Source: Escherichia phage ADB-2
Sequence record: NC_019725.1
Direction: 5' to 3' (one strand)
Length of the DNA: 50,552 nucleotides
Below the pieces are notes generated by a model. It worked only from the letters and a program-made list of their open reading frames with translations. It had not been told where the DNA came from and did not search any database. The translations under genes and the position numbers were made by a program. Positions 1 through 50,377 of this stretch are shown in pieces (position 1 is the stretch's first letter; every line of letters starts with the position of its first letter).

Positions 1-265
1 CTTTGAATGATTTTTTCATTGGGTTGCGATGGTCAAGCCCGGTGCACTTGAGCGTCTTTGTCTTCAGCTCAGTGAACTTCGCGAAGAAGATTTCATCAGA
101 TCCGTGAATCTGTAATTCATCATGCCTTTCAAGTTTTAAATACTTCCCGCATTTTAATTTTACTTCGCGAGTGCCATCATATCGCTCACGACCTTTGTAT
201 AGGTTGTTTACTTCAAATCCTGTGATTTTATCTGCGTAAGTACATTTCAGTTTGATTGATTTCAT
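1..265 (-). CDS. hypothetical protein, partial (3' end beyond window start)
   Basis: Open frame running off the window edge; ATG at 263-265 preceded by the recurring CCAATCAGGAG leader/RBS. Confidence 0.5.
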   Translation of the reverse strand, partial: MKSIKLKCTYADKITGFEVNNLYKGRERYDGTREVKLKCGKYLKLERHDELQIHGSDEIFFAKFTELKTKTLKCTGLDHRNPMKKSFK

Positions 266-2188: not shown

Positions 2189-2203
2189 TTGTTAGTCCGT
2201 TAA

Positions 2204-2389
2204 TTAAAAGAATGCTACATAGTTTGCAATGCCTTTGGCGTCGTCGTTAGGCATTGCCTTGACAGCCAGGTCGTAACCAGCTTCTACCTTCTGCTTTGCT
2301 GATTCTTCGCTGTACCCCCAAATAACCAGAATTTTAACTACGTTTTCTTTGTTCAGGACTTTAAGGTCTTTAGTGATGCGACGTGCCAT
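2204..2389 (-). CDS. hypothetical protein
   Basis: ORF with start set at ATG (MARRITK...) having GAGGAAA RBS. Confidence 0.45.
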   Translation of the reverse strand: MARRITKDLKVLNKENVVKILVIWGYSEESAKQKVEAGYDLAVKAMPNDDAKGIANYVAFF

Positions 2390-2446
2390 TTTATTTTTCC
2401 TCAATCTCGTTTCGATGAGGTAATTATGACAAATCACACCGATCGA

Positions 2447-2467
2447 GTTTTAACAAAAAGTGCTATT
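2447..2467 (-). promoter_or_regulatory. conserved intergenic element (copy 2)
   Basis: rc = AATAGCACTTTTTGTTAAAAC. Confidence 0.6.
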
Positions 2468-3153
2468 TGCGATCGCTTTGAAAAAACCACGCGGCGACAG
2501 GGATCTTATCAGCTTCGTTTTGGCAGACTTGCCGCCAAGTTTGTTTTGCTGTGCAGAGTACCCGTCAGGCAGATTTACAGGTTTTCTCTCCGGCATGACA
2601 AAATCGTCAGAGGTCCACAGACAAGTTTTCTTCGGGTAAGCATCGCGCGGCGCAATATACATCGGGAACCAGGGGTGTGAGTCATTCTCAGGAAGATAGC
2701 CGCCATACTCCCAGGGATTGAAGGAGTGATTTGGTTTTCTCCACGCAGACGACAGGACGCTTACCGGATTCTCAATGATGTAAGTCACGCCTAGCTATCG
2801 CCAATGTTCGCAGCAATCCGGGCAGTAGCGACAGCCTTCTCCTGGAATAACGGATCGCGTTCACGCTTGCTTGCAAAATGGCGAGCGCCACTAACAGCCA
2901 GGTCAGTGCAAGGAGGGAAAGCCATAATGAAATCCGGCTTGCCATACACACCAGAGATAGCATCACGCTCAAACGCTGCGTCAATGAACACGTTCACATA
3001 CTCAATGTTCGGATGCTCCACTCTGGCATTGTACTTTGCGTAATCTCCGTGATCGGCTCCGTCAAAGTTGAAGCACATCACCTTATGACCTTGCTTTGCC
3101 AGTTCATAACCAGCAATCCCGGAACCGTCGAATAGCGACCAAATTAATTTCAT
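2450..3153 (-). pseudogene. cytosine-C5 DNA methyltransferase-like gene, frame-disrupted near 2790 (possible sequencing indel)
   Basis: N-terminal ORF has LFDGSGIAG (motif I-like) and FPPCTDLAVSG (PC motif IV-like); adjacent ORF in -1 frame begins YIIENPVS (ENV motif VI-like); spacing of motifs matches C5-MTases. Confidence 0.5.
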
Positions 3154-3213
3154 CGTGACTTCCTCTTCTGATTGGTTTATGTGCCGGACTATACCCGATC
3201 TACCCGACCGAGT

Positions 3214-3233
3214 CGTTAGCAAAAAATGCTATT
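3214..3233 (-). promoter_or_regulatory. conserved intergenic element (copy 3, variant TAGCAT)
   Basis: rc = AATAGCATTTTTTGCTAACG; upstream of methyltransferase-like gene. Confidence 0.55.
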
Positions 3234-3854
3234 CCAATAATTGCTCATTATTCCATCAGTGCTGTAATAGGTGGAATAATTTTGATTGTGATTGATTGTG
3301 AATGATGAAACGTGATTATTGCATGGTGTGCAACAGTTGGTTGATTTGTTGCTTAGAATGCAATGATTGTGAGAGGGGGGATTTAGTGTTACCCGGTTCG
3401 CCTGGTGGTCATCTCCATTTTTAGCAAAACGTGCTATCGATTACGGTTACACTTGACCGCGTGTTAACAGTTGTCTACAATTTGCCTGAATCTCAATAGT
3501 AGACAAAATTACACCAAATTACGCCTTATAATATACATATAGATATATGTATATATATAATATATAAGTATTTTTTTATTTGTATATATAGATACTATTA
3601 TCTGTAATATGGTTGTATAGCGTGTCTACTATGTTAATCGTTGGATGCTCTGATTATTGTATTCATGTTTATATATACAGTAGTTTTATCGGCTCATATT
3701 TATATGGGGAAAGCGATTAACACGATTAACACGATTAACCACACTTAAAATCGACCTGCAAGCCTTGACGCAGGCGGGTCGTCGTGTAACACTGCAATTA
3801 GAGACGCGCTGTTACGCGTTAATCATTGTGTATATTGAAAATAAGGAGAAACCT
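3223..3854. promoter_or_regulatory. AT-rich divergent intergenic region with short repeats (candidate regulatory hub / origin)
   Basis: 630 bp without convincing ORF between divergent gene blocks; TATATA-rich; 3 tandem copies of GATTAACAC (3714-3741); inverted TTGTCTAC/GTAGACAA; TGATTG repeats. Confidence 0.5.
3417..3437 (-). promoter_or_regulatory. conserved intergenic element (copy 4)
   Basis: rc = ATAGCACGTTTTGCTAAAAAT; no coding gene directly downstream on minus strand. Confidence 0.55.
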
Positions 3855-5436: not shown

Positions 5437-5497
5437 AGCGCAGCAAGGAGGCTGTATATTAAACTAATTGAAACAAACGATTCTAGATGAGGAAAGA

Positions 5498-5758
5498 ATG
5501 AATAAGTCAGAGTTTATTGGAAGGGTAATTGATTGCAATTTAAGATTTGAAGTTAAAAAGGTGAGAGTGAACAAGGATAGAAATTATGGCCTTGACATTC
5601 AAACATACTCCCTCTGGCTGGTTGGCGAGCACAGCTCTGATGATACAATCACAATGGGGATTGATGCGCAGCCTCTTCTTGTAAAGTTTAGAAGCATTGA
5701 TAAAGCAAATAAAGAAGCTGAAAAGTTTAACAGATGGATAGGTAGCACGAATTGTTAA
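5498..5758 (+). CDS. hypothetical protein
   Basis: 86 aa, GAGGAAAGA RBS; C-terminus reads through the next element copy. Confidence 0.5.
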   Translation: MNKSEFIGRVIDCNLRFEVKKVRVNKDRNYGLDIQTYSLWLVGEHSSDDTITMGIDAQPLLVKFRSIDKANKEAEKFNRWIGSTNC

Positions 5759-5762
5759 AAAC
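5742..5762 (+). promoter_or_regulatory. conserved intergenic element (copy 7)
   Basis: GTAGCACGAATTGTTAAAAAC followed by hairpin GGGGTA...TACCCC carrying TATAGT. Confidence 0.6.
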
Positions 5763-5823
5763 GGATCGGGGTATCTTGCTATAGTTACCCCATCAAAACG
5801 AGATACCAATCAGAGGATTAACC

Positions 5824-6054
5824 ATGTCAATCGTCAAGAACCAACAAGCCATCGACTCAACCAGCCACAACCGCTTTGCTATTTTCATCACTCGCGACAA
5901 CAAGCGATTTGCTGTCAGGGCCGTGCCTGGTGGATACAAAACCTATATGGAAAATAACGGAAAATGGGTATGCTGCGACAACCTTGCCAACTTCCTGGTA
6001 TGGAACGCAGACCTGCAAGGATTCGATGATATCAGCACTTTAATTGAGGAATAA
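5824..6054 (+). CDS. hypothetical protein
   Basis: 76-aa ORF after CCAATCAGAGGA leader. Confidence 0.5.
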   Translation: MSIVKNQQAIDSTSHNRFAIFITRDNKRFAVRAVPGGYKTYMENNGKWVCCDNLANFLVWNADLQGFDDISTLIEE

Positions 6055-13287: not shown

Positions 13288-13311
13288 TAACCCGCTTCGG
13301 CGGGTTTTTTT
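13288..13311 (+). terminator. rho-independent terminator
   Basis: CCCGCTTCGGCGGG hairpin + TTTTTTT. Confidence 0.8.
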
Positions 13312-13323
13312 ATGCCTGCAATA

Positions 13324-13332
13324 TGGTAAAAT
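13324..13332 (+). promoter_or_regulatory. extended -10-like box TGgTAAAAT
   Basis: Directly after terminator and overlapping start of element copy 14. Confidence 0.35.
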
Positions 13333-13349
13333 AGCACTAAATGTTAAAC
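13329..13349 (+). promoter_or_regulatory. conserved intergenic element (copy 14)
   Basis: AAATAGCACTAAATGTTAAAC immediately followed by RBS AAGAGGA and the terminase small subunit ATG. Confidence 0.6.
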
Positions 13350-13364
13350 AAAGAGGATGGATTT

Positions 13365-13888
13365 ATGACTGAACCTAAGAACGCCCCCGTTGTCCAGGGA
13401 GGTAATTTCAAAGAGCTATACAAGAAAAAGTTCGGCACTGTTCTTGCGAAGAATCGGGCAATGACTCCTGAGCAATTATTCGATCTGTCAGTGAAGTATT
13501 TTGAGTGGGCCGAAGATAATGCGATCAAGCGTCAGAATCAGCCAGCTTCCAGGGTGGCGTTTACGAGTCACTTGTTCATAAGCCGCGCGTCTTCACTTGG
13601 ACCGGATACCGACTATTCATAGGAGCAAGCGAGGCCGCAATCATTAAATGGAAACGAGAGGAAGAATACAGTGAGGTTATGGAGTTCGTGGAATCTGTAA
13701 TCAACGAGCAAAAATTCCAGCTTGCTGCCAACGGTGTGATTAACGCTTCCTTTATCGGTAAGGATTTGGGAATCGATAAGCCAGCCTCAATCAATATCGA
13801 AAACTCGTCAGCTTCCGCATCGACAGTAGTCGCCACTACTGAGGATGCAATGAAAGAGGCAGTAAACAGCATTCTTGATATGCTTTAA
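13365..13888 (+). CDS. terminase small subunit (frame disrupted near 13545-13600)
   Basis: N-terminal part (frame of 13365) and C-terminal part (...PRVFTWTGYRLFIGASEAAIIKW...) lie in frames offset by -1; first gene of the packaging/head cluster. Confidence 0.55.
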
Positions 13889-13926
13889 CGTTAGGGGCGC
13901 GCAAGCGCCCATACAGGAGAATTGAT

Positions 13927-15501
13927 ATGATTCAATGGGAAGAACTCGACGCAACTCAGAAGTTAGCGATCAAGAAAATGAGCGAGGCCAATTTCGAAAA
14001 AATGATTCGGATCTGGTTCCAGCTTATGCAGGCGCAGCAGTTCCAGCCTAACTGGCATCACCTTTACCTATGCCACGAAGTGGAGGAAATCATTGCAGGC
14101 CGACGCGGGAATACTATCTTTAACGTCACGCCCGGTTCCGGTAAGACTGAGGTGTTCTCAATCCACCTTCCGGTTTACGCGATGCTCAAGTGTAAGAAGG
14201 TGCGAAACCTTAACGTGTCGTTTGCCGATAGTCTGGTTAAGCGTAACAGTAAGCGAGTGCGTGAGATTATCAGTAGCAACGAGTTCCAGGAGCTATGGCC
14301 CTGTAAGTTCGGCACATCAAAAGACGAAGAGATGCAAGTCCTTAACAGCGACGGTAAGGTCTGGTTCGAACTAATCTCCGCAGCGGCTGGCGGTCGAATT
14401 ACAGGTTCGCGTGGCGGCTACATGACGCCAGGATTCTCCGGGATGGTAATGCTCGACGATATAGACAAGCCTGACGATATGTTCTCAAAGGTTAAGCGTG
14501 AGCGTACTCACATGCTATTGAAGAACACCATACGATCCCGTCGTATGCACAACGAGACGCCAATTATTGCAATCCAGCAGCGACTGCACGCGCAGGATTC
14601 AACTTGGTTTATGATGAATGGAGGTATGGGTATTGAGTTTGACCAGATCTCGATCCCGGCGCTGGTGACTGAAGAATACGGAAAGACACTTCCTGATTGG
14701 TTGCAGCCTTACTTTGAGCGTGATGTTTTAGCGTCTGAGTATGTAGAATTGGATGGTGTTAAGCATTACTCTTTTTGGCCCAGCAAGGAAAGCGTTCACG
14801 ACCTGTTAGCGTTACGAGAAGCAGATCAGTATACCTTTGATTCTCAGTATCAGCAGAAACCGATCGCGCTGGGTGGCTCCGTGTTTAACTCGGAGTGGTG
14901 GACTTATTACGGAAGCAGCCTTGACGCTGACGAGCCAGATCCTGGTAAATATGATTACCGTTTTATCACCGCTGATACCGCTCAGAAGACAGGTGAGCTA
15001 AACGACTACACAGTCTTTTGTTTGTGGGGTAAGAAAAACGATAAGGTTTACTTTATCGACGGCATTCGCGGTAAGTGGGAAGCGCCGGATATGGAGAAAC
15101 AATTTACCGCCTTTGTGAATCAGGCATGGAGGCACAATAAATCAATGGGCGTGCTTCGCAAAATCTACGTGGAAGATAAAGCGAGCGGAACGGGCTTGAT
15201 TCAGAACTTAAGGAAAAAGACTCCGATCTCTATCACTCCGTTGCAGCGTAACAAAGACAAAGTTACCCGCGCGATGGATGCTCAGCCAGTAATCAAGGCT
15301 GGGCGCGTAGTTCTTCCAGAAGAGCACCCTATGCTCGCGGAAATCATCGCAGAACATAGCGCGTTCACTTACGATGACACGCATCCGCACGACGATATTG
15401 TCGATAACTTCATGGACGCTGCAAACATTGAACTACTGACAATTGACGATCCTATCGAGAGAATGAAGCGACTCGCGGGATGGTTAAGCGGTAATAAATG
15501 A
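13927..15501 (+). CDS. terminase large subunit
   Basis: 524 aa; Walker A-like TPGSGKT near N-terminus; acidic nuclease-like C-terminal half; position before portal. Confidence 0.85.
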   Translation: MIQWEELDATQKLAIKKMSEANFEKMIRIWFQLMQAQQFQPNWHHLYLCHEVEEIIAGRRGNTIFNVTPGSGKTEVFSIHLPVYAMLKCKKVRNLNVSFADSLVKRNSKRVREIISSNEFQELWPCKFGTSKDEEMQVLNSDGKVWFELISAAAGGRITGSRGGYMTPGFSGMVMLDDIDKPDDMFSKVKRERTHMLLKNTIRSRRMHNETPIIAIQQRLHAQDSTWFMMNGGMGIEFDQISIPALVTEEYGKTLPDWLQPYFERDVLASEYVELDGVKHYSFWPSKESVHDLLALREADQYTFDSQYQQKPIALGGSVFNSEWWTYYGSSLDADEPDPGKYDYRFITADTAQKTGELNDYTVFCLWGKKNDKVYFIDGIRGKWEAPDMEKQFTAFVNQAWRHNKSMGVLRKIYVEDKASGTGLIQNLRKKTPISITPLQRNKDKVTRAMDAQPVIKAGRVVLPEEHPMLAEIIAEHSAFTYDDTHPHDDIVDNFMDAANIELLTIDDPIERMKRLAGWLSGNK

Positions 15502-15511
15502 GATATAATCA

Positions 15512-15539
15512 GGGCTGTCAATTGACGGCCCTTTTTATT
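15512..15539 (+). terminator. hairpin + T-run between terminase and portal (attenuator/terminator-like)
   Basis: GGGCTGTCAA/TTGACGGCCC stem (1 mismatch) + TTTTTATT. Confidence 0.45.
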
Positions 15540-15548
15540 GGAGGAAAC

Positions 15549-16831
15549 ATGAAAATTGTTAAGCATGATGGATATAACGATATCTTTAACGGCGGCGCGG
15601 ACGGATCGCCTAAGCCATTCTTTATGTCTGATGCATCATATCACGTCGGTTCTTTCTACAACGACAACGCAACCGCGAAGCGAATTGTGGATGTTATCCC
15701 GGAAGAGATGGTGACGGCTGGATTTAAAATGTCAGGTGTTAAGGATGAAAAAGAGTTCAAATCTTTATGGGATAGCTACAAACTTGATTCAAGTCTGGTG
15801 GATCTTCTTTGTTGGGCGCGACTTTACGGTGGCGCGGCGATGGTGGCAATCATCAACGACAACCGGATGTTAACCAGTCAGGCAAAGCCTGGAGCTAAAC
15901 TTGAAGGCGTCCGAGTTTACGATCGATTTGCTATCACTGTTGAAAAGCGAGTCACCAATGCAAGATCCCCTCGCTATGGTGAGCCTGAAATTTACAAGGT
16001 ATCCCCTGGCGACAATATGCAGCCGTATCTGATTCATCACTCAAGAGTCTTTATTGCTGATGGTGAACGAGTAACGCAACAGGCAAGAAAGCAGAATCAA
16101 GGATGGGGGCGTCGGTATTGAACAAGTCACTGATTGATGCAATCTGTGACTATGATTACTGTGAATCTCTGGCCACTCAGATCTTGCGACGTAAGCAACA
16201 GGCTGTATGGAAGGTCAAAGGTCTTGCCGAAATGTGTGATGATGATGATGCTCAGTATGCCGCTCGACTGCGACTTGCTCAGGTTGATGATAACTCCGGC
16301 GTAGGTCGTGCGATCGGTATCGATGCTGAGACTGAGGAATATGACGTTCTCAACTCTGATATCAGCGGAGTTCCTGAGTTCTTATCAAGCAAGATGGACC
16401 GCATCGTCTCCCTGTCAGGGATTCATGAGATTATCATCAAGAATAAGAACGTAGGTGGCGTATCAGCGAGCCAAAACACAGCGCTTGAGACTTTCTATAA
16501 GCTAGTCGACCGCAAGCGTGAGGAAGACTACAGGCCGCTTCTTGAGTTCTTGTTACCGTTCATTGTTGAAGAGGAAGAGTGGTCTATCGAGTTTGAGCCT
16601 TTGTCTGTTCCTAGCAAGAAAGAGGAATCAGAGATCACGAAGAATAACGTTGAGTCAGTCACAAAGGCTATCACTGAGCAAATCATCGATCTGGAAGAAG
16701 CTCGCGACACGTTGCGATCTATTGCCCCTGAGTTCAAACTCAAGGATGGAAATAACATCAACATTCGCGAACCTGAAGAAACAACCGAGCCGGAGCCTGG
16801 ATTAGGGGAGAAGTTAGAAGATGAAAATTAA
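15549..16831 (+). CDS. portal protein (frame disrupted at G-run ~16104-16110)
   Basis: Two adjacent ORFs offset by -1 at GGGGG run; combined ~430 aa with acidic C-terminus, directly downstream of terminase large subunit; GGAGGA RBS before ATG 15549. Confidence 0.7.
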
Positions 16832-17582
16832 TGGCGTTGCAACACAGTGGCGCTATCCTGAAATGAGCGAGCGCGCAATGTCGCGCTCCCTACAGGATGT
16901 TGCAGCCAAACTAACTGAGAAAATGCGTGACGAATTAAAGCCGATGAAATTTGACGCTACTGACGAAGAGATAGATCAGACAGAAAGGTCATTGCTTGAT
17001 TACGTCGAATCACTCATCGCGCCGATTATCGGTTCTCTATCATCCGTTGCGCTAACGATCTATAAATTCAACTCTAAGCAGTGGCTGCGTATCGCTCGCA
17101 ATGCTGGAGGCAAGAAGAATCAAGCCGTAATGCTACTTGCCCTGATTGGTCCTACCGCTGCCGAAAGCTGGTACTCAGTACAATATAATCTGTGGCGATC
17201 GCAGGTGACTACTTCTATCAGGAAATTTGCTGCCAACATGGTTACTGATTTCACTGATAAACTTCGTGCTGCATCCGGTCAGGGTAAAAGCAAGGATTTT
17301 GTTGTTGAAATTGCTAAGGAGCGATTTGGTATTTACCGTAGCTGGGCCAAAAATAGAGCTTCGGGAATTGTCGGAACCTGGAACAGCAGACTGATGCGGC
17401 AGCGCATAAAAGACGCTGGTGTATCTTACTATTTCTGGCGCGGGGTGATGGATTTACGCGAACGTGAAAAACATGTAAGATGGGAAGGTAAGCGCATAGC
17501 GGTAGATTCAGATCACGTATTCCCGGGTGAAGAATACAACTGCCGCTGTTGGGCTGTTCCAGACTTTTCTACAGGAGATTAA
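16821..17582 (+). CDS. head morphogenesis protein (SPP1 gp7 / Mu F-like)
   Basis: 253 aa following portal; C-terminal CRCW motif typical of this family. Confidence 0.6.
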   Translation: MKINGVATQWRYPEMSERAMSRSLQDVAAKLTEKMRDELKPMKFDATDEEIDQTERSLLDYVESLIAPIIGSLSSVALTIYKFNSKQWLRIARNAGGKKNQAVMLLALIGPTAAESWYSVQYNLWRSQVTTSIRKFAANMVTDFTDKLRAASGQGKSKDFVVEIAKERFGIYRSWAKNRASGIVGTWNSRLMRQRIKDAGVSYYFWRGVMDLREREKHVRWEGKRIAVDSDHVFPGEEYNCRCWAVPDFSTGD

Positions 17583-22662: not shown

Positions 22663-23050
22663 GTTATCAGCGGCGGCGCGAGCCGCTTTTCTATCAAAGT
22701 ACAGAGACTTTCCTCACTACATGGAAAACAGAAATTTCACACCGCCGAAGGATGGCGGGATGTGGCTGAGGTTCAACTACATTGAAGGGGATACGCTTTA
22801 TCTATCCATTGACAGAAAGTGTAAATCTTACATCGCAATCGTTCAGATCGGCGTAGTGTTCCCTCCAGGCTCCGGCGTTGACGAAGCAAGATTGAAAGCA
22901 AAAGAGATTGCTGATTTTTTCAAAGATGGTAAAATGCTTAACGTTGGTTATATTTTCGAGGGTGCAATCGTGCATCAAATTGTTAAACATGAAAGCGGGT
23001 GGATGATTCCGGTTCGCTTTACAGTACGAGTAGACACAAAGGAGACTTAA
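22652..23050 (+). CDS. hypothetical tail-region protein (tail terminator/completion candidate)
   Basis: 132-aa ORF immediately upstream of major tail protein. Confidence 0.35.
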   Translation: MHYELSAAARAAFLSKYRDFPHYMENRNFTPPKDGGMWLRFNYIEGDTLYLSIDRKCKSYIAIVQIGVVFPPGSGVDEARLKAKEIADFFKDGKMLNVGYIFEGAIVHQIVKHESGWMIPVRFTVRVDTKET

Positions 23051-23052
23051 TT

Positions 23053-23720
23053 ATGCACTTACCAAATGGCGCACAAATTTTCGTGGAAACCTCTCGAGGG
23101 GTAGAGGTTGAGGCAACCGCTGTCACTAACGCAGAAAATCCTGTTGCTACAGTTGCATCTAAGGGTGACTTGGCAAAAGGTGATTACGTTATTGTAACTC
23201 AGTCAACTTGGGCAAAGATGGTTAGTCGAGTGCTAATTGTTACTGACGCTCAGGAAACAAGTATCACTCTTGCTGGAATTGACACCTCTGATACTCTTGT
23301 TTTCCCGACTGGCGGCACAATGAGCTTCGCAAAAATTACTGGATGGACTGAGATCCCTTGCGTACAGGAGATTGGTCAGGACGGCGGTGAGCAGCAGTAT
23401 TACACTTATCAGTGTTTGTCCGACGATAAAGAGCAGCAGATCCCAACGTTTAAATCTGCGATCTCGCTAACGTACACTTTCGCGCACGAATTTGATAACC
23501 CGATCTACCCTATTCTGCGTAAGCTGGATTCTTCTGGTCAGGTAACTGCGGTTCGGATGTATGTTCCAAAAGCGAACGAGATGCGCATGTGGCTGGTATC
23601 TTGTCTTTTAACGACATTCCATCTACGCAAGTAAACGAAATGGAAACGGTACAACTCGCCGTATCCCTGAAGGGTGATTTCACTTTCGTTTCATCCGCTC
23701 TGGCATCACCTGGTGCCTAA
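23053..23720 (+). CDS. major tail protein (frame disrupted near 23585)
   Basis: Starts at ATG 23053; the -1 frame continues as ...AHVAGILSFNDIPSTQVNEMETVQLAVSLKGDFTFVSSALASPGA to a stop at 23718-23720, followed by GC hairpin. Confidence 0.6.
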
Positions 23721-23733
23721 ATCATATCCACAG

Positions 23734-23760
23734 GGGGCTTGCGCCCCCTTATTCATTTCT
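23734..23760 (+). terminator. terminator-like GC hairpin
   Basis: GGGGGC-TTGC-GCCCCC followed by T-rich TTATTCATTTCT. Confidence 0.5.
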
Positions 23761-23792
23761 GTAAAATCATCGTATCAACTTTATTCGATTAA

Positions 23793-23813
23793 CTTTTAAC
23801 AAAAAATGCTATC
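23793..23813 (-). promoter_or_regulatory. conserved intergenic element (copy 16, antisense orientation)
   Basis: rc = GATAGCATTTTTTGTTAAAAG; lies just upstream of plus-strand chaperone gene but in opposite orientation. Confidence 0.5.
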
Positions 23814-23833
23814 AACCAATCAGGAGAAACATC

Positions 23834-24151
23834 ATGGCTAAATTCAATTTCGTGTTGGGCCAGCTTCCAGACTTCAAACTTCCGGTGACGTTCACCATGC
23901 CAAACGGCGAGGATGCAACTATTATTTTTACAGTGCGCCACCTTTCCAGTAAAGAAGTGCAAGATATGTATGCGAAGCAGGGCGAAATGAATGATAGCGA
24001 TTTCATCACTAAGATCGCGTCAGGCTGGAATCTGGAAGAAGAATTTAACGAAGAGAATACGCGTAAACTGGTACAGTATTATCCTTCCGCAGCGTACAAC
24101 CTGACGGCAACTTACATCAAGGCGCTTGCCGGACACCGCGCAAAAAACTAA
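23834..24151 (+). CDS. tail assembly chaperone (lambda G-like)
   Basis: 105 aa between major tail protein and tape measure; ends with slippery A_AAA_AAC. Confidence 0.7.
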   Translation: MAKFNFVLGQLPDFKLPVTFTMPNGEDATIIFTVRHLSSKEVQDMYAKQGEMNDSDFITKIASGWNLEEEFNEENTRKLVQYYPSAAYNLTATYIKALAGHRAKN

Positions 24152-24468
24152 AAAGGGCGGTTTATCTGTTATATCAGAAACCGCCGACAGAAGAGCAATT
24201 ACGATCGGTTGGCCTCAGTCTTTCTGACTATGAAGACGAGGAGCCGGAAACGATAATCGGCGATACTGAAATGGTGAAGGCGTGGAATGTTTTTACGTCA
24301 ATGCTCACTCAGTGGAGAAGTTCAGGCGCTGGAGCTTATGGTCTTGACTATAATGTTTTGCCTATGTTGTTCAAAATCTATAAAATAGAAGATGAAGAAC
24401 TGGCATTGCAGGACGTTAGAATCATGGAAGCGAAAGCGCTTGAAATGATTGCTAAGCAAAACAACTAA
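23834..24468 (+). CDS. tail assembly chaperone frameshift product (GT-like), via -1 shift at 24142-24148
   Basis: -1 frame is open from the slippery heptamer through 24468 (ORF 24271..24468 is its 3' part). Confidence 0.65.
24142..24148 (+). other. programmed -1 ribosomal frameshift slippery heptamer A_AAA_AAC
   Basis: X_XXY_YYZ heptamer in 0 frame (GCA AAA AAC TAA) at the 3' end of the chaperone gene. Confidence 0.7.
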
Positions 24469-24490
24469 GCCGCCGTTTGGCGGTTTTTTC
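24469..24490 (+). terminator. rho-independent terminator
   Basis: CCGCC-GTTT-GGCGG + TTTTTT. Confidence 0.7.
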
Positions 24491-24506
24491 GTATATAGGG
24501 GGTTAT

Positions 24507-27380
24507 ATGGTTGATAAGGTAGCAGGTCTGTCGCTTGACGTTGATGTGTCAACAGTGCAGCGCGCCGTCAAGTCACTGAAAGAGTTTTCAAAGGCCAACG
24601 ACCAGGCTGCTGATTCTATGGGTTCTTTAATCAATGAGTCAGAGGTTGCAAAACAGAAGGCCAAAGAACACGCTGAACAACTCAAGCGCCAGAGAAAAGA
24701 GTATGAGGCCGTGGAGAAGGCAATCGATCCTACAGTATCAAAAATGGAAAGGTTGAAGATTGCGTCTCAGCAGCTTGATAAACTCTGGCAGCAGGGAGTC
24801 GTTCCAGATGAGACATTTTTCCGTTTGGGTGAAATGCTGGATCTGCAAAACGCAAAACTTGCTCGTAGCCGGGCTATGCTTACGGAAGAAGGTCAGGCGG
24901 CATTGCAGGAAGCGAAAGCAAAAGAGCAGGCGGCAGCACGAAGCAAGGCGTTCATGGATGCCCTGAATGGTCAAGTTAACGCGATCGGCAAGACTCATGC
25001 TGAATTGATGGAACTGAAAGCGGCTGAGCTTGGTTTATCGAAAGAAGCAGCACCACTAATCGCAAAACTTAAAGATCAAGGCCGGGCTATGAATGCAGCA
25101 GGTATTAGCGCCGGGGAATACAGGCAAGCAATGCGAATGCTTCCTGCACAGATTACCGACGTCGTTACATCTCTTGCGTCCGGCATGCCAGTTTGGATGG
25201 TTGCCATCCAGCAAGGCGGTCAAATCAAGGACTCGTTCGGCGGGATTGGTAATACGTTTAAAGTGTTGCTGAGTTATATTAATCCAGTCACAGCAGGTAT
25301 TGGCGTTCTTGTTGGTTCTTTAGGTCTTCTGGCGAAAGCTGGTTATGACTCTTACAAGTCAATAACTGATATTCAGAATGCGCTTATTGAGACTGGCGGT
25401 TATGCGGGTGTTACGGCTGAAGAGCTTGATTCAGTGTCTAAAAAGATCGCGCAGACAAGCAACTCAACCATTGGGAGTATTCGCGAGATTGTAACGGAGT
25501 TGGCAAGTTCTGGTAAGTACACCCGAGAGCAGATCCAGAACATCACTAAGGCTACCGCAGAGTGGTCAGCGTCAACAGGAAAATCAGCAAGTCAAATTAT
25601 TGCTGAGTTCGACAAAATCGCAAGTGATCCGGTAAAAGGTCTGAAGAAGTTAAACGAGCAATATAATTTCCTTGAAAAAGGGCAGCTTACCTATATCGAT
25701 ACATTAAGCCGGACGAAAGGAGAAACTGAGGCTGTATCAGAGGCTACCAAACTATTCGCAGACGTAATGGAAAAGCGAATGAAGTCGATCGCGGATAACG
25801 CTACTCCTCTGGAAAAGATGTGGAGCGATATTAAACAATGGGCTTCGGACGCGTGGGGATGGGTTGGTGATCATACGCTTGGTGCGCTAAACCTGATTAT
25901 CGACGTTGTTCAGGGTACAGTGATTCAGGTTAAAATGATTCTTGCGAAGGGTGATGAGTACATCTCAAATTTTATCGCCTCAGCCATAAAGGCAACTCAG
26001 TCACTGCCTGGAATGAGTGATTTCGGCGCTGATGTGCTGAAGGAGCAGGAGAACATTGTAAAAAGTTCTCGCGACAACTACGATCAGTTAGCTTCAGAGC
26101 TTGACGCTATTAACGCTCGCGTAGAAAAAGGCGAGATGGGATACGTTGAAGCGATGAAGCAGCGTCGCACTCTTGAAAAGCAGTACAGCGAGGAAACTAA
26201 GGAAGCAATAAGGAAAGAAGCAGAAGAGATCGAGAAGCGAAACCGAGAACGAAATAAGCAGTCGAAAATTGTGCGCTCACCGACAGAGCAATTCGACAAG
26301 GAGTTAATTTCACTCAAGGCTCAACTTAAGGTATTGCAGGAGCACAAGGAGATCGGTCAAAAACTTTCCGCGCAGAGAAAAGCGCTGTTTACGACCGAGG
26401 CGACGATTGCTGTTCTTCGTGAAGCCAGTTCCAAGCGTCAGTTGTCTGCGGAAGAAAAAGCATTGTTGGCAAGTCAGGAGAAGGTTGTAGAACTTGCTAA
26501 ACAGAAGGCTGAGATTGGCGATCAGATTGTCAAGCAACAGCAGTTGAACGCACTTACCGACAAATCACTGAAGTTTGTCAATGAGATGACGGCGGCGACG
26601 GAACAGCTTAACGCTTCACGAGGTCTTAGTACTCGCGACATGGAACGACAAGCTGAACTAGCTAAAATCACCACTGATTACATCAACTCCGGCGGCGGTG
26701 AAGGAGACGAAAAACTCCAGAACATGATTAAGGCGCAAAATGATTACTACGCTGCGGAAGATGCCAAGCGAGCTGACTGGTTGGCAGGTGCTGAAAGTGC
26801 TTTTGCTGATTACGGTGATGCAGCAATGGATATGTACGGCAATGTTAACGAGATCGCGTCAAGTGCCCTTAACGGAATGTCAGATATGATGGTTCAATTT
26901 CTGACCACAGGAAAAGCGAACTTTGAGGACTTTGCGAAAAATATAATCGGCATGATTATAAAGATGATTGCTCAGATGGTAATCTTCAATACGATCTCAG
27001 GCATGATGGGCGGTAAGACGTGGAGCTTTGCTGGAGGGGCGTCGTCTGGTGCTTCTGCGGCATCACAGGCAACCCCTACGCCTGCCGTCTCTGGTTTTAG
27101 GTCTTTATCTTCAGGCGTCGCTGTTACCTCGCTTGCTGCCGCTGCGGGTAGTGTTGCAACATCTGGATTTAACGCATCTAAATCAGCACCGAAGGCAGTA
27201 AACCAATCAGCAGGCGGGACGGTCGTTGATGTTAGGGGTATGGAGGTTAAGGTTGATAACGGTTCAGATCCGAGAGGAATTTCTCAGGGCGTAGAAATTA
27301 TGTTCAAAAAAATGATTCGCGAGTCTTGTTCGCAGGGCGGTGAGGTTTATAATTACATTCAGGAAAAAACAGGAGGCTAA
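24507..27380 (+). CDS. tail tape measure protein
   Basis: 957 aa, long helical/coiled-coil regions, hydrophobic segment, position after G/GT chaperones. Confidence 0.85.
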
Positions 27381-27382
27381 TA

Positions 27383-27736
27383 ATGGCGACACTTGACACT
27401 TTCGGTTGGTGTACGCAGGTTCAAGGGGGCGGTGGCTCCCTTACCACTACCAATAATGACCGCTCCATCCAGTTTGGTAACGGCTACATGCAGCTTGCAT
27501 CATCTGGATTTAACACCACTCGACGCGAGTATTCAGTTGTCTATGCTGGGGAAGATTTCATGGCTGTTTACGACTTCTGCAACTCTCACCGCATTAAACC
27601 GTTCGCATGGACGCCGCCGGACGGGAAGATCGGAATATGGGTTGTCAAGCCCAACAGTTTGGGAGCGAAGCCAGTATCACGCGACGTGATGGAGATTAAC
27701 GTTACGTTTATGGAGCAGTTTACATCTATGGAGTAA
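27383..27736 (+). CDS. minor tail protein (lambda M-like)
   Basis: 117 aa immediately after tape measure, before L/K/I/J-like genes. Confidence 0.6.
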   Translation: MATLDTFGWCTQVQGGGGSLTTTNNDRSIQFGNGYMQLASSGFNTTRREYSVVYAGEDFMAVYDFCNSHRIKPFAWTPPDGKIGIWVVKPNSLGAKPVSRDVMEINVTFMEQFTSME

Positions 27737-27749
27737 CGACATATAACAA

Positions 27750-27775
27750 AAGCCCGCCTTGCGCGGGTTTTTTTG
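27750..27775 (+). terminator. rho-independent terminator
   Basis: CCCGCCTTGCGCGGG + TTTTTTT; followed by TGtAGAAT box. Confidence 0.8.
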
Positions 27776-27815
27776 TAGCTGTAGAATGGTTGCAGGTAAA
27801 CAAGAGGAAAAATCA

Positions 27816-28597
27816 ATGAGCGAAAACAAAAAACTTTATGATGAAGAAAGTGGAAGAAGCCTGTTTCACAACTGCCTACAATCACTGTATCCTGGTGAGA
27901 TAATCACCCTTATTGAGGTTGATGGTAGTAAGTTCGGCGCCAGGTGTACCGATTCCACGGTGAGAATATCCAGTACACTCCAGAAGAAATCATGCAGGCC
28001 CAGCAAACTGGAACGCTACCGCCGAAAGAAATTACATTCCGCGGCGAGAAATACGGGGCGCGACCTTTCGGTATATCCGGGATCTCATTTGACAGTTCAG
28101 GCAAGGCAACAAAACCACAATTAACGGTGGCAAACATTGATAGTCGCGTATCTGCGATGATTCGTGCATATAACGGACTAATGCAAGCTAAGGTGACTAT
28201 CTGGATAACTCAGCGTGATCTTATTAGCTCCGATGGCTCAATCGCTGATGGAGCTTACCGCAAACTGGTATACTATATCGAGCGTCCGAACTATGTTGAT
28301 AAAAGCGTTGCGCGGTTCGATCTCACATCACCTTACGATATGGACGGCATCATGATTCCGTCTCGACTCACGCAAAGCGTATGCTATTGGGCGCAGCGTG
28401 GATGGTATAAGACCGGGAAGGGCTGCGGATATAACGGGCAAAACGGTTACTTTGATAAAGACAATAATCCGGTAGATGATCCTTCACTGGACTTTTGCCC
28501 GGGTACGGTAACGTCCTGCCGCCTGAGATTCGGCGCAAACAATGAATTGGATTTTGGCGGTTGCGCTGTCGCTTCACTACAGAGGAAAAATCAATGA
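27816..28597 (+). CDS. minor tail protein (lambda L-like), frame disrupted near 27935-27945
   Basis: N-terminal ...IITLIEVDGSKFGA and continuation YRFHGENIQYTPEE...ITFRGEKYGARPFGISGISF...PQLTVANIDSRVSAM align to lambda gpL but in frames offset by -1. Confidence 0.65.
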
Positions 28598-29328
28598 TTA
28601 GTGCAAAAATTAAACTTGAAATTATGACTCACGCTCAGGAAGAATACCCCCGCGAATGCTGCGGGGTAGTCACCCAAAAGGGCCGCGTGCAAAAATACCA
28701 TCGCGTTGATAATGTACATCGCGATCCTGAGAATCACTTCATGATGGACGCAGTGCAATACGCATGTATTGAGGACGATGCGGAATCAACTACGATCGCA
28801 ATTGTTCATAGTCATACAGGAGACGGGGCTACAACTCTACCAAGCGCTCACGATACGTGCATGTGCAACGAGATGGAAGTTACCTGGATCATTGTTAGCG
28901 TGCCTGAAGGAGATATGCGATTTGTGAAGCCAGAGAAATTACCTCTGATTGGTCGTCCGTGGTCATTAGGATCATTCGACTGTTACGGTCTTGTTATGGC
29001 GTGGCACAAAGAGCACGGCGTAGAGTTACGCGATCGCCGATTGAATTTTGAATGGTGGAAACCGGAGTACGGAATTAATCTCTATCAGGATTATTACAAG
29101 CAAGATGGATTCGTTGAGATTCCAGATCAGAATAACCCATCATTCGGGGATATGGTAATCATGCAGATAGGGCAAAATGTTCCGGTATGGAACCACGCAG
29201 GCATTTACCTGGGTGATAATCAGATCTTGCATCACGCCTTTGGCAAACTTTCGCGACGCGATATCTATTCCGGCTGGTATCAGGATCATACTGTTTTAAT
29301 TGTTCGCCATAAGGATCTTAAATTATGA
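28594..29328 (+). CDS. tail protein (lambda K-like): JAB/MPN metalloprotease + NlpC/P60 domains
   Basis: JAMM motif HSHTGDGATTLPSAHD; C-terminal NlpC/P60-like FDCYGLV...H; ATGA overlap with upstream gene. Confidence 0.8.
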   Translation: MISAKIKLEIMTHAQEEYPRECCGVVTQKGRVQKYHRVDNVHRDPENHFMMDAVQYACIEDDAESTTIAIVHSHTGDGATTLPSAHDTCMCNEMEVTWIIVSVPEGDMRFVKPEKLPLIGRPWSLGSFDCYGLVMAWHKEHGVELRDRRLNFEWWKPEYGINLYQDYYKQDGFVEIPDQNNPSFGDMVIMQIGQNVPVWNHAGIYLGDNQILHHAFGKLSRRDIYSGWYQDHTVLIVRHKDLKL

Positions 29329-29924
29329 ATGATGTAAAAGTAATCAAATTATCAGGTTCACTTGGAAGGCGCTTCGGCGTCTTTCACAGATTCGCCGTTG
29401 ACTCTTACCCGGAAGCTATCCGGGCGCTATCCAGTCAGGTGGATGGATTCAAAGAATACATGCAAAGCGAGATAGGATCTCGTAGCAAGTTTGCAATATT
29501 TGTGGATGGCGTTAACGTTGGACACCATGAAGAGGAAAAATTCAAGTGCGCGAAAGAGATAAGAATCGTACCGATCCCTACTGGCTCTAAGACAGGAGGT
29601 CTATTCCAGGTTGTATTGGGCGCGGCAATAATGGTTGCAGCATTCTATACTGGCGGCGCGTCTCTGGCTTTAATGGGCACAATGTCCTCGTCTCTGTTTA
29701 TGATGGGCGGCGCTATGGTGCTGGGCGGCGTGATGCAGATGATTTCACCGCAGCCGGGTGGCGCAAACTTTGAAGTTCAATCAAGCAAGAATAAACCTTC
29801 GTACGCGTTCGGCGGTGCTGTCAATACGACGGCAGCGGGATACCCTCTCCCGGTCCCGTATGGATATCGCGCCGGAGGTGGCGCAACTTTCTCAGCAGGT
29901 TCTTATGCCGAGGATATGAGTTAA
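29325..29924 (+). CDS. tail assembly protein (lambda I-like)
   Basis: 199 aa; hydrophobic Gly/Ala-rich C-terminal half; position between K-like and J-like genes. Confidence 0.65.
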   Translation: MNDVKVIKLSGSLGRRFGVFHRFAVDSYPEAIRALSSQVDGFKEYMQSEIGSRSKFAIFVDGVNVGHHEEEKFKCAKEIRIVPIPTGSKTGGLFQVVLGAAIMVAAFYTGGASLALMGTMSSSLFMMGGAMVLGGVMQMISPQPGGANFEVQSSKNKPSYAFGGAVNTTAAGYPLPVPYGYRAGGGATFSAGSYAEDMS

Positions 29925-29929
29925 AATTA

Positions 29930-29953
29930 ACCCGCCTTGCGCGGGTTTTTTTT
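29930..29953 (+). terminator. rho-independent terminator
   Basis: CCCGCCTTGCGCGGG + TTTTTTTT. Confidence 0.8.
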
Positions 29954-29957
29954 CGCC

Positions 29958-29965
29958 TGTATAAT
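29958..29965 (+). promoter_or_regulatory. extended -10-like box TGtATAAT
   Basis: Immediately after terminator, 13 nt upstream of element copy 17 and 37 nt upstream of the J-like ATG. Confidence 0.4.
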
Positions 29966-29977
29966 GAGTCCACCGAT

Positions 29978-29998
29978 AAATAGCACAAAAAGGTAAAC
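29978..29998 (+). promoter_or_regulatory. conserved intergenic element (copy 17, degenerate)
   Basis: AAATAGCACAAAAAGGTAAAC. Confidence 0.45.
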
Positions 29999-30001
29999 AT
30001 C

Positions 30002-39474: not shown

Positions 39475-40409
39475 TAGAGTAGGTCACTTGCTGAGAATAA
39501 CTTGGATTGCATTCCTGAGCGGTATCCTCCAGGGTTCGGGATTATTATTTTTAATTGTCGGTCGTCTGCCATGTATAAAGTCTCCTTGTCCGAAGGTTCG
39601 CACGCCACTCTTACTTCTCGATCACCTTTATACCTGTACGCAACCATTTCTAAGTTTTCAGGAGTGAAGCAGGCCCATACCTCTTGCTTTGTGTGAAATG
39701 CAATATGCTGAGCATCAATCCAATTAAGGCATAAGTAGATCGCCTTCTCAGTTTTACCAGTCACGGCAACCGAGCAACTCGTATATTTCTTCGCGTAAAA
39801 TGATTCTCTTCCTTCCTCATCAATAATCAAAATATTGCAAAACTCATCATCAAGCCCGTCCTCATGCACAAGTTGACACGGAATGGTGTGAAACACGCTC
39901 TCCCCGCCATCTTCTCGACGTTTTACGCCAACGTCGAATGATTCAGTGGGTAGTGACTCAAAAATACTTAGGGGTGTGTTTACGCGCTTCTCTGTACGCT
40001 CCATAACTTTCATTACCGCCTCATGATCTGCCATCATGACATTGACACCTGATACCGGAGTTCGGCGCGCTTTCTTGTTTGCCTTGACAATGTATTCCTG
40101 CGGAACCTTGCCGAGAAATCTACCCAGGATATTTATGCATTCGCTATACGGCATACCAGTTAATTTCATCAACCAACCTATCCCGGAGTCGTTACCGCAT
40201 GAGTTGCAGATCGCGCCGCCGTCGCCTGGAGTGTTAAGATTGTCAGTCCAGCGAAAGCGGTCCTTACCTCCGCAGTTAGGGCAGGGCTGGTGTTTCTTGT
40301 TGAATACCTCGTTCGGCAACCCGCAGACTGACTGAAAAGCATCGCGCCATAAACCTTTCATGTACGGCAAAACATCCTCTTTCTGAAACATCATAAATTC
40401 TTCGTTCAC
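39474..40409 (-). CDS. DNA primase (zinc-ribbon + Toprim-type)
   Basis: 311 aa; CPNCGGKDRFRW...CNSCGN zinc-binding motif typical of phage primases; GGAGA RBS before GTG start. Confidence 0.65.
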   Translation of the reverse strand: MNEEFMMFQKEDVLPYMKGLWRDAFQSVCGLPNEVFNKKHQPCPNCGGKDRFRWTDNLNTPGDGGAICNSCGNDSGIGWLMKLTGMPYSECINILGRFLGKVPQEYIVKANKKARRTPVSGVNVMMADHEAVMKVMERTEKRVNTPLSIFESLPTESFDVGVKRREDGGESVFHTIPCQLVHEDGLDDEFCNILIIDEEGRESFYAKKYTSCSVAVTGKTEKAIYLCLNWIDAQHIAFHTKQEVWACFTPENLEMVAYRYKGDREVRVACEPSDKETLYMADDRQLKIIIPNPGGYRSGMQSKLFSASDLL

Positions 40410-40431
40410 TTCCAGATCTCCAAAATAAAAA

Positions 40432-40462
40432 ACGCGTAGAAGGATGTTAACCCGCTACGCGT
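40432..40462 (-). terminator. hairpin with flanking T-run between regulator-like gene and primase (attenuator-like)
   Basis: ACGCGTAG...CTACGCGT 8-bp stem, 15-nt loop; T-rich on minus strand after stem. Confidence 0.35.
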
Positions 40463-40467
40463 CGTTT

Positions 40468-40488
40468 GTTTTAACTAAAAATGCTATT
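40468..40488 (-). promoter_or_regulatory. conserved intergenic element (copy 19)
   Basis: rc = AATAGCATTTTTAGTTAAAAC; overlaps stop of 40471..40923. Confidence 0.55.
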
Positions 40489-46465: not shown

Positions 46466-46476
46466 TCGCCAAAAAC
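46456..46476 (+). promoter_or_regulatory. conserved intergenic element (copy 23, degenerate)
   Basis: ATCGCACTAATCGCCAAAAAC followed by hairpin CCCGAA..TTCGGG and TATATT. Confidence 0.45.
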
Positions 46477-46528
46477 TCCCGAAGGGATTCGGGTATATTG
46501 ACCACATAGAAAACAAAGAGGGTATTTC

Positions 46529-50325: not shown

Positions 50326-50377
50326 CACAATAAACTCCTTAGTTGACGGTGTAAATGATACACTGCCAATGGTATAC

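What the first reader, a model, noticed from the sequence alone, without database searches (positions are those of the whole stretch)
2450..3153. Frame-disrupted cytosine-C5 methyltransferase-like gene in the early region
Two adjacent minus-strand ORFs together carry C5-MTase-like motifs in the correct order and spacing: LFDGSGIAG (motif I), FPPCTDLAVSG (PC motif IV) and, in the -1 frame, IIENPVS (motif VI). The break is at about 2790-2796. At ~233 aa the protein would be short for a C5-MTase with a target-recognition domain. It is either a sequencing indel in an intact orphan MTase, a decaying gene, or an unusual short MTase-fold enzyme that modifies something else.
Basis: partly seen in the sequence, partly recalled or inferred. 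Interest (0 to 1): 0.55.

Follow-up and report, generated by a model that had tools for sequence, protein, structure and literature searches.

The report
Phage Dcm methylase gene, probable sequencing frameshift
This is the short Dcm-like cytosine DNA methyltransferase gene that T1-like phages commonly carry. Its frame break is a single missing base, most likely one of many sequencing deletions in this assembly, so the finding is ordinary.

Summary
On the minus strand, 3153-2791 (120 codons, then TAG) and 2794-2450 (114 codons in the other frame) together encode a 234-aa protein with C5-methyltransferase motifs I, IV and VI.

The protein belongs to a very large phage family of 225-250 aa enzymes (phrog_757, E 7e-84). 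The short length is therefore normal. A 56%-identical homologue, phage K42/KarlJaspers Dcm, has the same C82, E128 and K175/K176. It has been shown to make 5mC at CCWGG and to trigger retron Ec86/Eco1. The predicted fold matches DNMT3B, M.HhaI and other C5-MTases.

The break is one missing C, and none of the 37 other orthologues inspected lacks it. dN/dS is 0.04-0.08 on both sides of the break, so the gene shows no decay. There is no slippery site.

The decisive point is that the same assembly has at least 14 other 1-2-nt deletions that break conserved genes. These include terminase small subunit, portal, major tail protein, tail-tip J (twice) and a helicase. A viable phage cannot carry these, so the dcm frameshift is most likely (about 0.8) a sequencing artefact.

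A real recent loss (about 0.18) is not excluded. dcm is a dispensable cassette: T1 and other relatives lack it, and several relatives carry independent lesions. Interest is low and the family is already known.

The parts
2450..3153 (-). Whole dcm-like gene (704 bp as given; 705 bp / 234 codons in intact orthologues).
   Evidence: phrog_757 E 6.9e-84.
2791..3153 (-). N-terminal reading frame: 120 codons plus a premature TAG (2793-2791). It carries motif I (F8-x-G10-S11-G12, 3135-3109) and motif IV (P80-P81-C82, 2919-2887, with catalytic Cys codon 2910-2908).
   Evidence: G10, S11, G12, P80 and C82 are invariant in the 28-sequence family alignment. C82 is the putative catalytic residue, assigned by AlphaFold2/DNMT3A alignment, in the K42 Dcm study.
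2450..2794 (-). C-terminal 114 codons in the other frame. The mechanical ORF starts at GTG 2788. It carries motif VI E128-N129-P130 (Glu codon 2773-2771), K175-K176 (2632-2627) and the conserved C-terminal block I216-R217-S218-L219..R222-G223.
   Evidence: Invariant columns are listed. The numbering is aligned with Bas06 Dcm.
2794..2795 (-). Site of the single missing base. Orthologues read GAT AGC CTG GGC (or GAC GCA CTG GGC) and the window reads GAT AGC -TA GGC. No slippery heptamer is present.
   Evidence: Alignments. None of the 27, 8 or 2 other orthologues lacks this base.
3154..3168 (-). Shine-Dalgarno-like GAGGA (3165-3161), 7 nt upstream of ATG 3153.
   Evidence: Read directly.
3204..3233 (-). 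Upstream copy of an imperfect direct repeat that flanks the dcm cassette (AATAGCATTTTTTGCTAACGACTCGGTCGG).
   Evidence: alignment A3. The dcm-less relative L054 has one hybrid copy of the repeat.
2439..2467 (-). Downstream copy of the same repeat. It overlaps the last codons and the stop of dcm (AATAGCACTTTTTGTTAAAACTCGATCGG).

Best explanation
The locus is the Dcm-like orphan C5-cytosine DNA methyltransferase gene of a T1-like phage (Tunavirus, Drexlerviridae). The protein is a compact one-domain enzyme of 234 aa. By homology it binds SAM through motif I, attacks cytosine C6 with Cys82 (motif IV), uses Glu128 (motif VI) and Lys175/Lys176, and makes 5-methylcytosine, probably at CCWGG.

The inferred function is protective methylation of phage DNA (89 CCWGG sites in this genome). 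As a side effect, the enzyme is the trigger sensed by retron Ec86/Eco1.

The frame break is one missing C at 2794/2795. It is most probably an error of this assembly rather than a property of the phage. In that case the real gene is an intact 705-bp ORF.

Shown here: family membership, fold, motif conservation, absence of the deletion from every other orthologue inspected, lack of decay, and the many similar deletions in essential genes. Inferred: CCWGG specificity, the biological role, and that the dcm deletion belongs to the same error class.
For: Family and fold:
- phrog_757 'DNA methyltransferase', E 6.9e-84.
- 4844 homologous clusters, nearly all 225-250 aa; 937 representatives at the 50% level; present in 1522 of 50,697 phage records.
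- The relatives annotate an intact 705-bp CDS, e.g. SH6 gp82, EF3-1 gp46 and LeonhardEuler bas13_0055 'Dcm-like C5 cytosine methyltransferase'.
- 56% identity (E 8e-88) to Bas06 KarlJaspers Dcm with identical numbering of C82, E128 and K175/K176. K42 Dcm makes 5mC, the CCWGG site of the msDNA is required, and it triggers retron Ec86 (cited).

No decay:
- dN/dS 0.04-0.08 on both sides of the break; 8 private substitutions, 5 of them synonymous.

Artefact:
- Relative to T1 proteins, the window splits TerS (13529), portal (16108), major tail protein (23590), minor tail protein (27940), J (30228 and 30805), ST32 (33609), helicase (41383) and spanin (47606). It also truncates TerL (15476), ST44 (22186) and ST59 (12323).
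- The portal is called as two ORFs of 207 and 242 aa.
- Isolated 1-nt indels are 23 deletions against 3 insertions.
- Window 13300-17000 is 3701 nt against 3705 nt in AV106, SH6, JMPW1, IME167, phi2013, T1 and CLB_P3. Window 22900-31000 is 8101 nt against 8105-8107 nt in relatives.
- At about one frame-breaking deletion per 2-3 kb, a 705-bp gene is hit with a probability of about 0.2-0.3.
Against: - The raw reads are not available, so the error cannot be shown directly.
- dcm really is lost or broken in some relatives. T1 has none. L054 lost it cleanly between flanking repeats. Other relatives have a different cassette there. DELF2 has a nonsense codon, and phiD2-2 and FCWL1 share a +1 insertion.
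- Laboratory escapers from retron Ec86 carry exactly this kind of 1-bp deletion in dcm.
- Five database products of 112 aa start at the same GTG, so other assemblies have a lesion somewhere in codons 78-122.
- The deletion is not in a long homopolymer (CC to C).
- Sequence-only tests for the canonical family are weak: Pfam PF00145 scores 14.6 bits against a cut-off of 22, with no NCBIfam hit and no PDB sequence hit.
- CCWGG specificity is extrapolated from a 56%-identical enzyme whose residues 183-210 differ.
Confidence: 0.78

Rival explanations
1. The deletion is real. This phage recently lost Dcm function through a 1-nt frameshift. Either the cassette is dispensable, or loss was selected on a host carrying a methylation-sensing defence such as retron Ec86/Eco1 (native in E. 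coli B/BL21).
For: - Escapers from Ec86 disrupt dcm, one of them by a 1-bp deletion.
- 8 of 27 other Tunavirus orthologues carry a lesion at 7 different sites; 6 of these are severe. They include IME18 and FCWL1, both isolated on BL21(DE3).
- T1 and several assemblies lack dcm altogether.
- The absence of decay fits a recent event as well as an error.
Against: - The same assembly has at least 14 deletions of the same type in indispensable genes, which cannot be real. An error is therefore the simpler cause.
- IME167, also grown on BL21(DE3), has an intact gene, so the host association is weak.
- Some of the lesions in relatives may also be errors: IME18 is 1 nt short in the terminase-portal block.
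Confidence: 0.18
2. The two ORFs are expressed together. This could happen by a programmed -1 ribosomal frameshift. It could also happen by termination-reinitiation at TAG-GC-GTG, giving a two-piece enzyme that reassembles, as natural or engineered split C5-MTases do (M.AquI, split M.HhaI; from my own knowledge).
For: The GTG at 2788 lies 2 nt after the TAG at 2793-2791, so coupling is geometrically possible.
Against: - There is no X XXY YYZ slippery heptamer at GGC GAT AGC TAG, and no Shine-Dalgarno sequence before the GTG.
- The arrangement is not conserved: 29 of the 37 other orthologues are single ORFs and none shares the break.
- The split falls between motif IV and motif VI, inside the catalytic core, not in the variable region where known split enzymes are cut.
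Confidence: 0.02
3. The protein is not a DNA C5-methyltransferase. It is a short MTase-fold enzyme that acts on another substrate (RNA, a nucleotide) or transfers another group.
For: - It is below the Pfam PF00145 threshold.
- The target-recognition region is very small.
Against: - LC-MS showed 5mC on msDNA after expression of the 56%-identical K42 Dcm. The effect was lost in the C82A/E128A/K175A/K176A mutant and when the CCTGG site was mutated.
- All four of those residues are conserved here.
- The top structural matches are DNA C5-MTases.
Confidence: 0.03

Closest known systems
Dcm of phage K42 / KarlJaspers (Bas06, bas06_0055), the trigger of retron Ec86/Eco1 (bioRxiv 10.1101/2023.08.16.553469)
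   Same: Same family and size (236 vs 234 aa). 56% identity over 229 residues, with identical positions of C82, E128 and K175/K176. It also sits in a Drexlerviridae early-gene block next to small ORFs. Escapers lose it by the same kind of 1-bp deletion.
   Different: Different subfamily (Hanrivervirus vs Tunavirus). Residues 183-210, the likely DNA-recognition stretch, diverge. CCWGG specificity and retron triggering are therefore inferred for the window enzyme, not shown.
Tunavirus orthologues: SH6 gp82, EF3-1 gp46, LeonhardEuler bas13_0055 'Dcm-like C5 cytosine methyltransferase'
   Same: 90-94% DNA identity and 94-97% protein identity. Same position and same neighbouring genes.
   Different: They are uninterrupted 705-bp ORFs. 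The window lacks one C and has 8 private substitutions.
Canonical C5-cytosine DNA methyltransferases (M.HhaI, M.HaeIII, DNMT3A/3B catalytic domain; Pfam PF00145)
   Different: About 100 residues shorter. Only a rudimentary target-recognition region lies between the K175-K176 block and the C-terminal helix. KK replaces the usual RxR of motif VIII. It scores below the Pfam gathering threshold.
E. coli Dcm / M.EcoRII (CCWGG C5-MTases; from my own knowledge)
   Same: Probably the same target sequence and product (C-5mC-WGG), if the K42 result transfers.
   Different: The host enzymes are about 470 aa with a large TRD and an N-terminal extension. No detectable sequence similarity beyond the core motifs was seen in any search here.

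Membership tests
Phage Dcm-like short C5-MTase family (phrog_757; K42/Bas06 Dcm) | Significant full-length match to the family profile | tested here: met
   phrog_757 E 6.9e-84, 281.8 bits, residues 1-231. 56% identity to Bas06 Dcm.
Phage Dcm-like short C5-MTase family (phrog_757; K42/Bas06 Dcm) | Length of about 225-250 aa with a single domain | tested here: met
   234 aa once the missing base is restored. Family lengths are listed.
Phage Dcm-like short C5-MTase family (phrog_757; K42/Bas06 Dcm) | Residues whose combined alanine substitution abolished K42 Dcm activity: C82, E128, K175, K176 | tested here: met
   All four are present at the same numbering. C82, E128 and K175 are invariant and K176 is at least 90% conserved in 28 family members.
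Phage Dcm-like short C5-MTase family (phrog_757; K42/Bas06 Dcm) | One uninterrupted ORF | tested here: not met
   As given, the window has a 1-nt deletion and a TAG at codon 121. This is judged a probable assembly error because essential genes carry the same defect.
Phage Dcm-like short C5-MTase family (phrog_757; K42/Bas06 Dcm) | 5mC formation at CCWGG and activation of retron Ec86/Eco1 | not testable with these tools
   Shown for K42 Dcm only. The window has 89 CCWGG sites, which are not depleted.
C5-cytosine DNA methyltransferase superfamily (Pfam PF00145) | Score above the Pfam gathering threshold | tested here: not met
   14.6 bits (N-terminal half) or 12.5 bits (restored protein), against a cut-off of 22. 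Only a few family members carry a precomputed PF00145 hit.
C5-cytosine DNA methyltransferase superfamily (Pfam PF00145) | Motif I (FxGxG), motif IV (PC) and motif VI (ENV-like) in canonical order | tested here: met
   F8-D-G10-S-G12, P81-C82 and E128-N-P130.
C5-cytosine DNA methyltransferase superfamily (Pfam PF00145) | C5-MTase fold | tested here: met
C5-cytosine DNA methyltransferase superfamily (Pfam PF00145) | Motif VIII (QxRxR) and a target-recognition domain between motifs VIII and IX | tested here: inconclusive
   Y-P-K175-K176-T-C-L-W occupies the motif VIII position. Only about 30 poorly conserved residues (183-210, pLDDT 73-82) follow, before the conserved K-T-K-x-I-R-S-L block.
Programmed -1 ribosomal frameshift gene | Slippery heptamer, and conservation of the two-frame arrangement in relatives | tested here: not met
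   No slippery site at 2800-2788. No other orthologue has the break.

The most novel reading that the evidence does not exclude
The missing base is real. This isolate would then be a natural dcm-null variant of a T1-like phage, that is, a field example of the escape route from methylation-sensing defences (retron Ec86/Eco1) so far seen only in laboratory escapers. This would fit the recurrent independent lesions and clean cassette losses of dcm in relatives. A still less likely variant is that the two halves reassemble as a split methyltransferase.
Probability: 0.18. Interest if true: 0.3.

Novelty: already known. Interest (0 to 1): 0.12.

Why it matters
This is mainly a curation point. The gene should not be annotated as a pseudogene or as two hypothetical proteins before the assembly is polished, because the same record breaks the terminase, portal and tail genes in the same way.

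Whether dcm is intact has practical value. In this phage family the enzyme is the known trigger of retron Ec86/Eco1, and it is a candidate protection against CCWGG-specific restriction. Its status therefore helps predict host range on E. coli B/BL21-type strains.

The survey also shows that dcm is a dispensable, repeat-flanked cassette that is often lost or damaged in T1-like phages. This is consistent with a trade-off between anti-restriction and being sensed, though that trade-off is already described in the literature.

Tried and rejected
- **Programmed frameshift.** There is no slippery site and the arrangement is not conserved.
- **Long-term pseudogene decay.** dN/dS is 0.04-0.08 in both halves, and the private substitutions resemble those of intact relatives.
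- **Sequence-only placement in curated families.** Pfam is below threshold, NCBIfam gives nothing, and PDB sequences give nothing with either the single sequence or the profile. Placement rests on PHROGs, the fold and the literature.
- **Avoidance of CCWGG in the genome.** There are 89 sites against 74-96 expected, so there is no depletion.
- **Nanopore-type miscalls at Dcm or Dam motifs as the source of the errors.** CCWGG is conserved between T1 and the window in 55% of sites. The figures are 61% for same-composition 5-mers and 49% for CCSGG. None of 76 CCWGG sites and none of 220 GATC sites is hit by a window deletion. This was rejected.
- **Association of broken dcm with BL21(DE3) hosts, which carry retron Ec86.** IME18 and FCWL1 are broken but IME167 is intact. 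The sample is too small to decide.
- **Fetching the contigs that encode the 112-aa products starting at the same GTG.** Searches through neighbouring proteins did not reach them.
- **Searching with the 120-aa N-terminal ORF.** No identical truncated product was found.

Full report
**What is in the sequence**

The window is a T1-like phage genome (Tunavirus, Drexlerviridae). The best DNA matches to 2200-3400 are Shigella phage SH6, IME18, ISF002 and about 140 other records at 87-92% identity.

On the minus strand an ORF starts at ATG 3153. It is preceded by GAGGA 7 nt upstream and ends at TAG 2793-2791 after 120 codons. A second frame is open from 2794, has its first start codon (GTG) at 2788 and ends at TAA 2452-2450. 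The first ORF carries LFDGSGIAG and FPPCTDLAVSG, and the second carries IIENPVS. tblastn with an intact relative maps residues 1-120 to 3153-2794 in one frame and residues 121-234 to 2794-2453 in the other.

**What the break is**

Orthologues in SH6, EF3-1 and many other phages are single 705-bp CDSs of 234 codons. The window has 704 bp. Alignment shows one missing C in GAT AGC CTG GGC, which becomes GAT AGC -TA GGC.

None of 27 other Tunavirus orthologues aligned lacks this base. The same holds for 8 further assemblies and 2 more. There is no slippery heptamer at the site and no Shine-Dalgarno sequence before the GTG. A programmed frameshift or a deliberately split gene is therefore very unlikely.

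**What the gene is**

The restored protein hits phrog_757 'DNA methyltransferase' at E 6.9e-84 over its whole length. It has 4844 homologous 90% clusters, almost all of 225-250 aa, and 937 representatives at the 50% level. It occurs in 1522 of 50,697 phage records, including Drexlerviridae, Dhillonvirus-like siphoviruses, Klebsiella phages and large myoviruses.

Curated sequence models do not reach it. Pfam PF00145 scores 12.5-14.6 bits against a cut-off of 22. NCBIfam gives no hit, and PDB sequences give none with either a single sequence or a profile.

**Link to experimental work**

A preprint on retron Ec86 (bioRxiv 10.1101/2023.08.16.553469) identified the 711-bp dcm gene of phage K42 as the trigger of the retron. 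K42 is a 95% genome relative of KarlJaspers/Bas06.

- Expression of Dcm produced 5mC on the msDNA by LC-MS.
- The effect needed the CCTGG site of the msDNA.
- It was lost in a C82A/E128A/K175A/K176A mutant.
- All four escaper phages had lesions affecting dcm, one of them a 1-bp deletion frameshift.

A 2026 paper restates this mechanism. I fetched Bas06 and compared its 'Dcm-like C5 cytosine methyltransferase' (40087-40797) with the restored window protein. Identity is 56%, E 8e-88, with C82, E128 and K175/K176 at identical numbering.

The BASEL paper notes that such C5-MTases are abundant in Drexlerviridae, but found no simple link to restriction resistance. So the enzymatic activity of the family is shown for a homologue. 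The specificity of the window enzyme (residues 183-210 differ) and its protective role are inferences. The genome has 89 CCWGG sites, which is not a depletion.

**Is the gene decaying?**

No. Nei-Gojobori dN/dS between the window and seven intact relatives is 0.04-0.08, and is the same upstream and downstream of the break. The window has 8 private substitutions (5 synonymous, 3 conservative), which is no more than intact relatives have, and there is no second lesion. The break is therefore either very recent or not real.

**The decisive control**

I translated 67 annotated T1 genes and searched them against the window. Genes that are 93-100% identical to T1 are split between two frames in the window:

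| Gene | Window position of the deletion |
|---|---|
| Terminase small subunit | 13529 |
| Portal | 16108 |
| Major tail protein | 23590 |
| Minor tail protein ST36 | 27940 |
| Tail-tip protein J | 30228 and 30805 |
| ST32 | 33609 |
| Helicase ST22 | 41383 |
| Spanin | 47606 |

TerL (15476), ST44 (22186) and ST59 (12323) lose their C-termini in the same way.

DNA alignment shows each case is a 1-nt deletion in the window. Among isolated 1-nt indels there are 23 deletions and 3 insertions. The ORF list confirms that the portal is split into 207- and 242-aa pieces.

The deletions are absent from every other relative compared. Window 13300-17000 is 3701 nt against 3705 nt in AV106, SH6, JMPW1, IME167, phi2013, T1 and CLB_P3. 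Window 22900-31000 is 8101 nt against 8105-8107 nt.

A plaque-forming virulent phage cannot have frameshifted terminase, portal, tail tube and tail-tip genes, so these are assembly errors. They occur at about one per 2-3 kb. A 705-bp gene would be hit with a probability of about 0.2-0.3, and the dcm lesion is of the same type (CC to C, as at 15476 and 22186).

I tested whether the errors cluster at Dcm or Dam motifs, as nanopore miscalls do. They do not.

**Why a real loss is not excluded**

dcm is clearly dispensable and unstable in this clade.

- T1 itself has no homologue.
- One 43-kb assembly (L054) lost the gene exactly between an imperfect ~30-nt direct repeat. In the window this repeat lies at 3233-3204 and 2467-2439.
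- Other assemblies carry nothing, two small ORFs or an HNH endonuclease in the same slot.
- Among 27 other orthologues, 8 have lesions at 7 different sites:
  - IME18, -1 at nt 581
  - LHE71, +2 at nt 271
  - phiD2-2 and FCWL1, a shared +1 at nt 538 (FCWL1 also has a 152-nt deletion)
  - DELF2, a nonsense codon at 62
  - JMPW2, a nonsense codon at 229
  - vB_SsoS_008, four deletions
  - SH2, +1 at nt 700
- Database products of 112 aa that start at the same GTG show that further assemblies are broken somewhere in codons 78-122. I could not fetch their DNA.

Some of these lesions are probably errors too: IME18 is also 1 nt short in the terminase-portal block. A substitution to a stop codon and a lesion shared by two records look real. 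Two of three BL21(DE3)-propagated phages have a broken gene and one has it intact, which is suggestive but far too few.

**Verdict**

The object is a member of an already known and experimentally characterised family of compact phage Dcm-like C5-cytosine DNA methyltransferases. The frame disruption is confirmed in the sequence as given. I put the readings at about 0.8 for an assembly artefact, about 0.18 for a genuine recent null allele, and about 0.02 for any expression mechanism that bridges the break. Interest is low. The useful outputs are:

- the correct annotation of the gene
- a warning that the whole assembly needs polishing
- the side observation that dcm is a repeat-flanked, frequently lost cassette in T1-like phages

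Noticed in passing
window 4292/4314, 8977, 12323, 13529, 15476, 16108, 22186, 23590, 27940, 30228, 30805, 33609, 41383, 47606: 1-2-nt deletions, absent from every relative compared, break or truncate conserved and mostly essential genes: TerS, TerL C-terminus, portal, major and minor tail proteins, J twice, helicase and spanin. Isolated 1-nt indels against T1 are 23 deletions and 3 insertions. The assembly needs polishing.
   Followed up: yes
window 3204-3233 and 2439-2467; L054 2370-2470: dcm is flanked by an imperfect ~30-nt direct repeat (AATAGCAyTTTTTGyTAA..ACTCGrTCGG). A 43-kb relative (SRR20302979 contig) has a single hybrid copy and no dcm. This suggests cassette loss or gain by recombination between the repeats.
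   Followed up: partly
L046 (T1), L057-L059, L063, L064: The slot that holds dcm is polymorphic in Tunaviruses. T1 and T1-like assemblies have nothing there, L057 has two small ORFs, and L059 has an HNH endonuclease.
   Followed up: partly
L011/L053 (DELF2), L012 (JMPW2), L014 (IME18), L021 (vB_SsoS_008), L032 (LHE71), L033 (phiD2-2), L034 (FCWL1), L036 (SH2): Eight of 27 other Tunavirus dcm orthologues carry independent lesions: frameshifts at nt 271, 538 (shared by two records), 581 and 700, nonsense codons at 62 and 229, and multiple deletions. It is unclear how many are real and how many are sequencing errors. IME18 and FCWL1 were grown on BL21(DE3), which has retron Ec86.
   Followed up: partly
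proteins P0273, P0274, P0276, P0277, P0279 (Logan contigs of about 47 kb): 112-aa gene products start at the same GTG (MTYIIENPVS) as window ORF B and are about 95% identical to it. They differ among themselves by scattered P-to-Q and L-to-M changes. They imply a lesion in codons 78-122 in other assemblies, but their DNA could not be fetched.
   Followed up: partly
window 43516-44226 (+): An intact Dam-like N6-adenine methyltransferase gene, 99% identical to T1 ST20. The genome has 245 GATC sites against about 193 expected from base composition.
   Followed up: no
window 2-265 and 50404-50550 (-): The homologue of T1 ST7 (138 aa) is cut by the ends of the window. The record is therefore a circularly permuted or arbitrarily opened linearisation, not the physical genome ends.
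   Followed up: no
window, relative to T1 5465-5959, 42028-42510 and 46085-46624: The three HNH homing-endonuclease genes of T1 are absent from the window, or reduced to a short remnant at 50328-50390.
   Followed up: no
P0002 (Shigella phage vB_SflS-ISF001 orthologue): This intact-length orthologue is only 84-86% identical. It has unusual replacements at otherwise conserved positions, for example PPC to PQC at motif IV and WFP to KFP. The record has the same length (50,552 bp) as SH6 and as this window.
   Followed up: no
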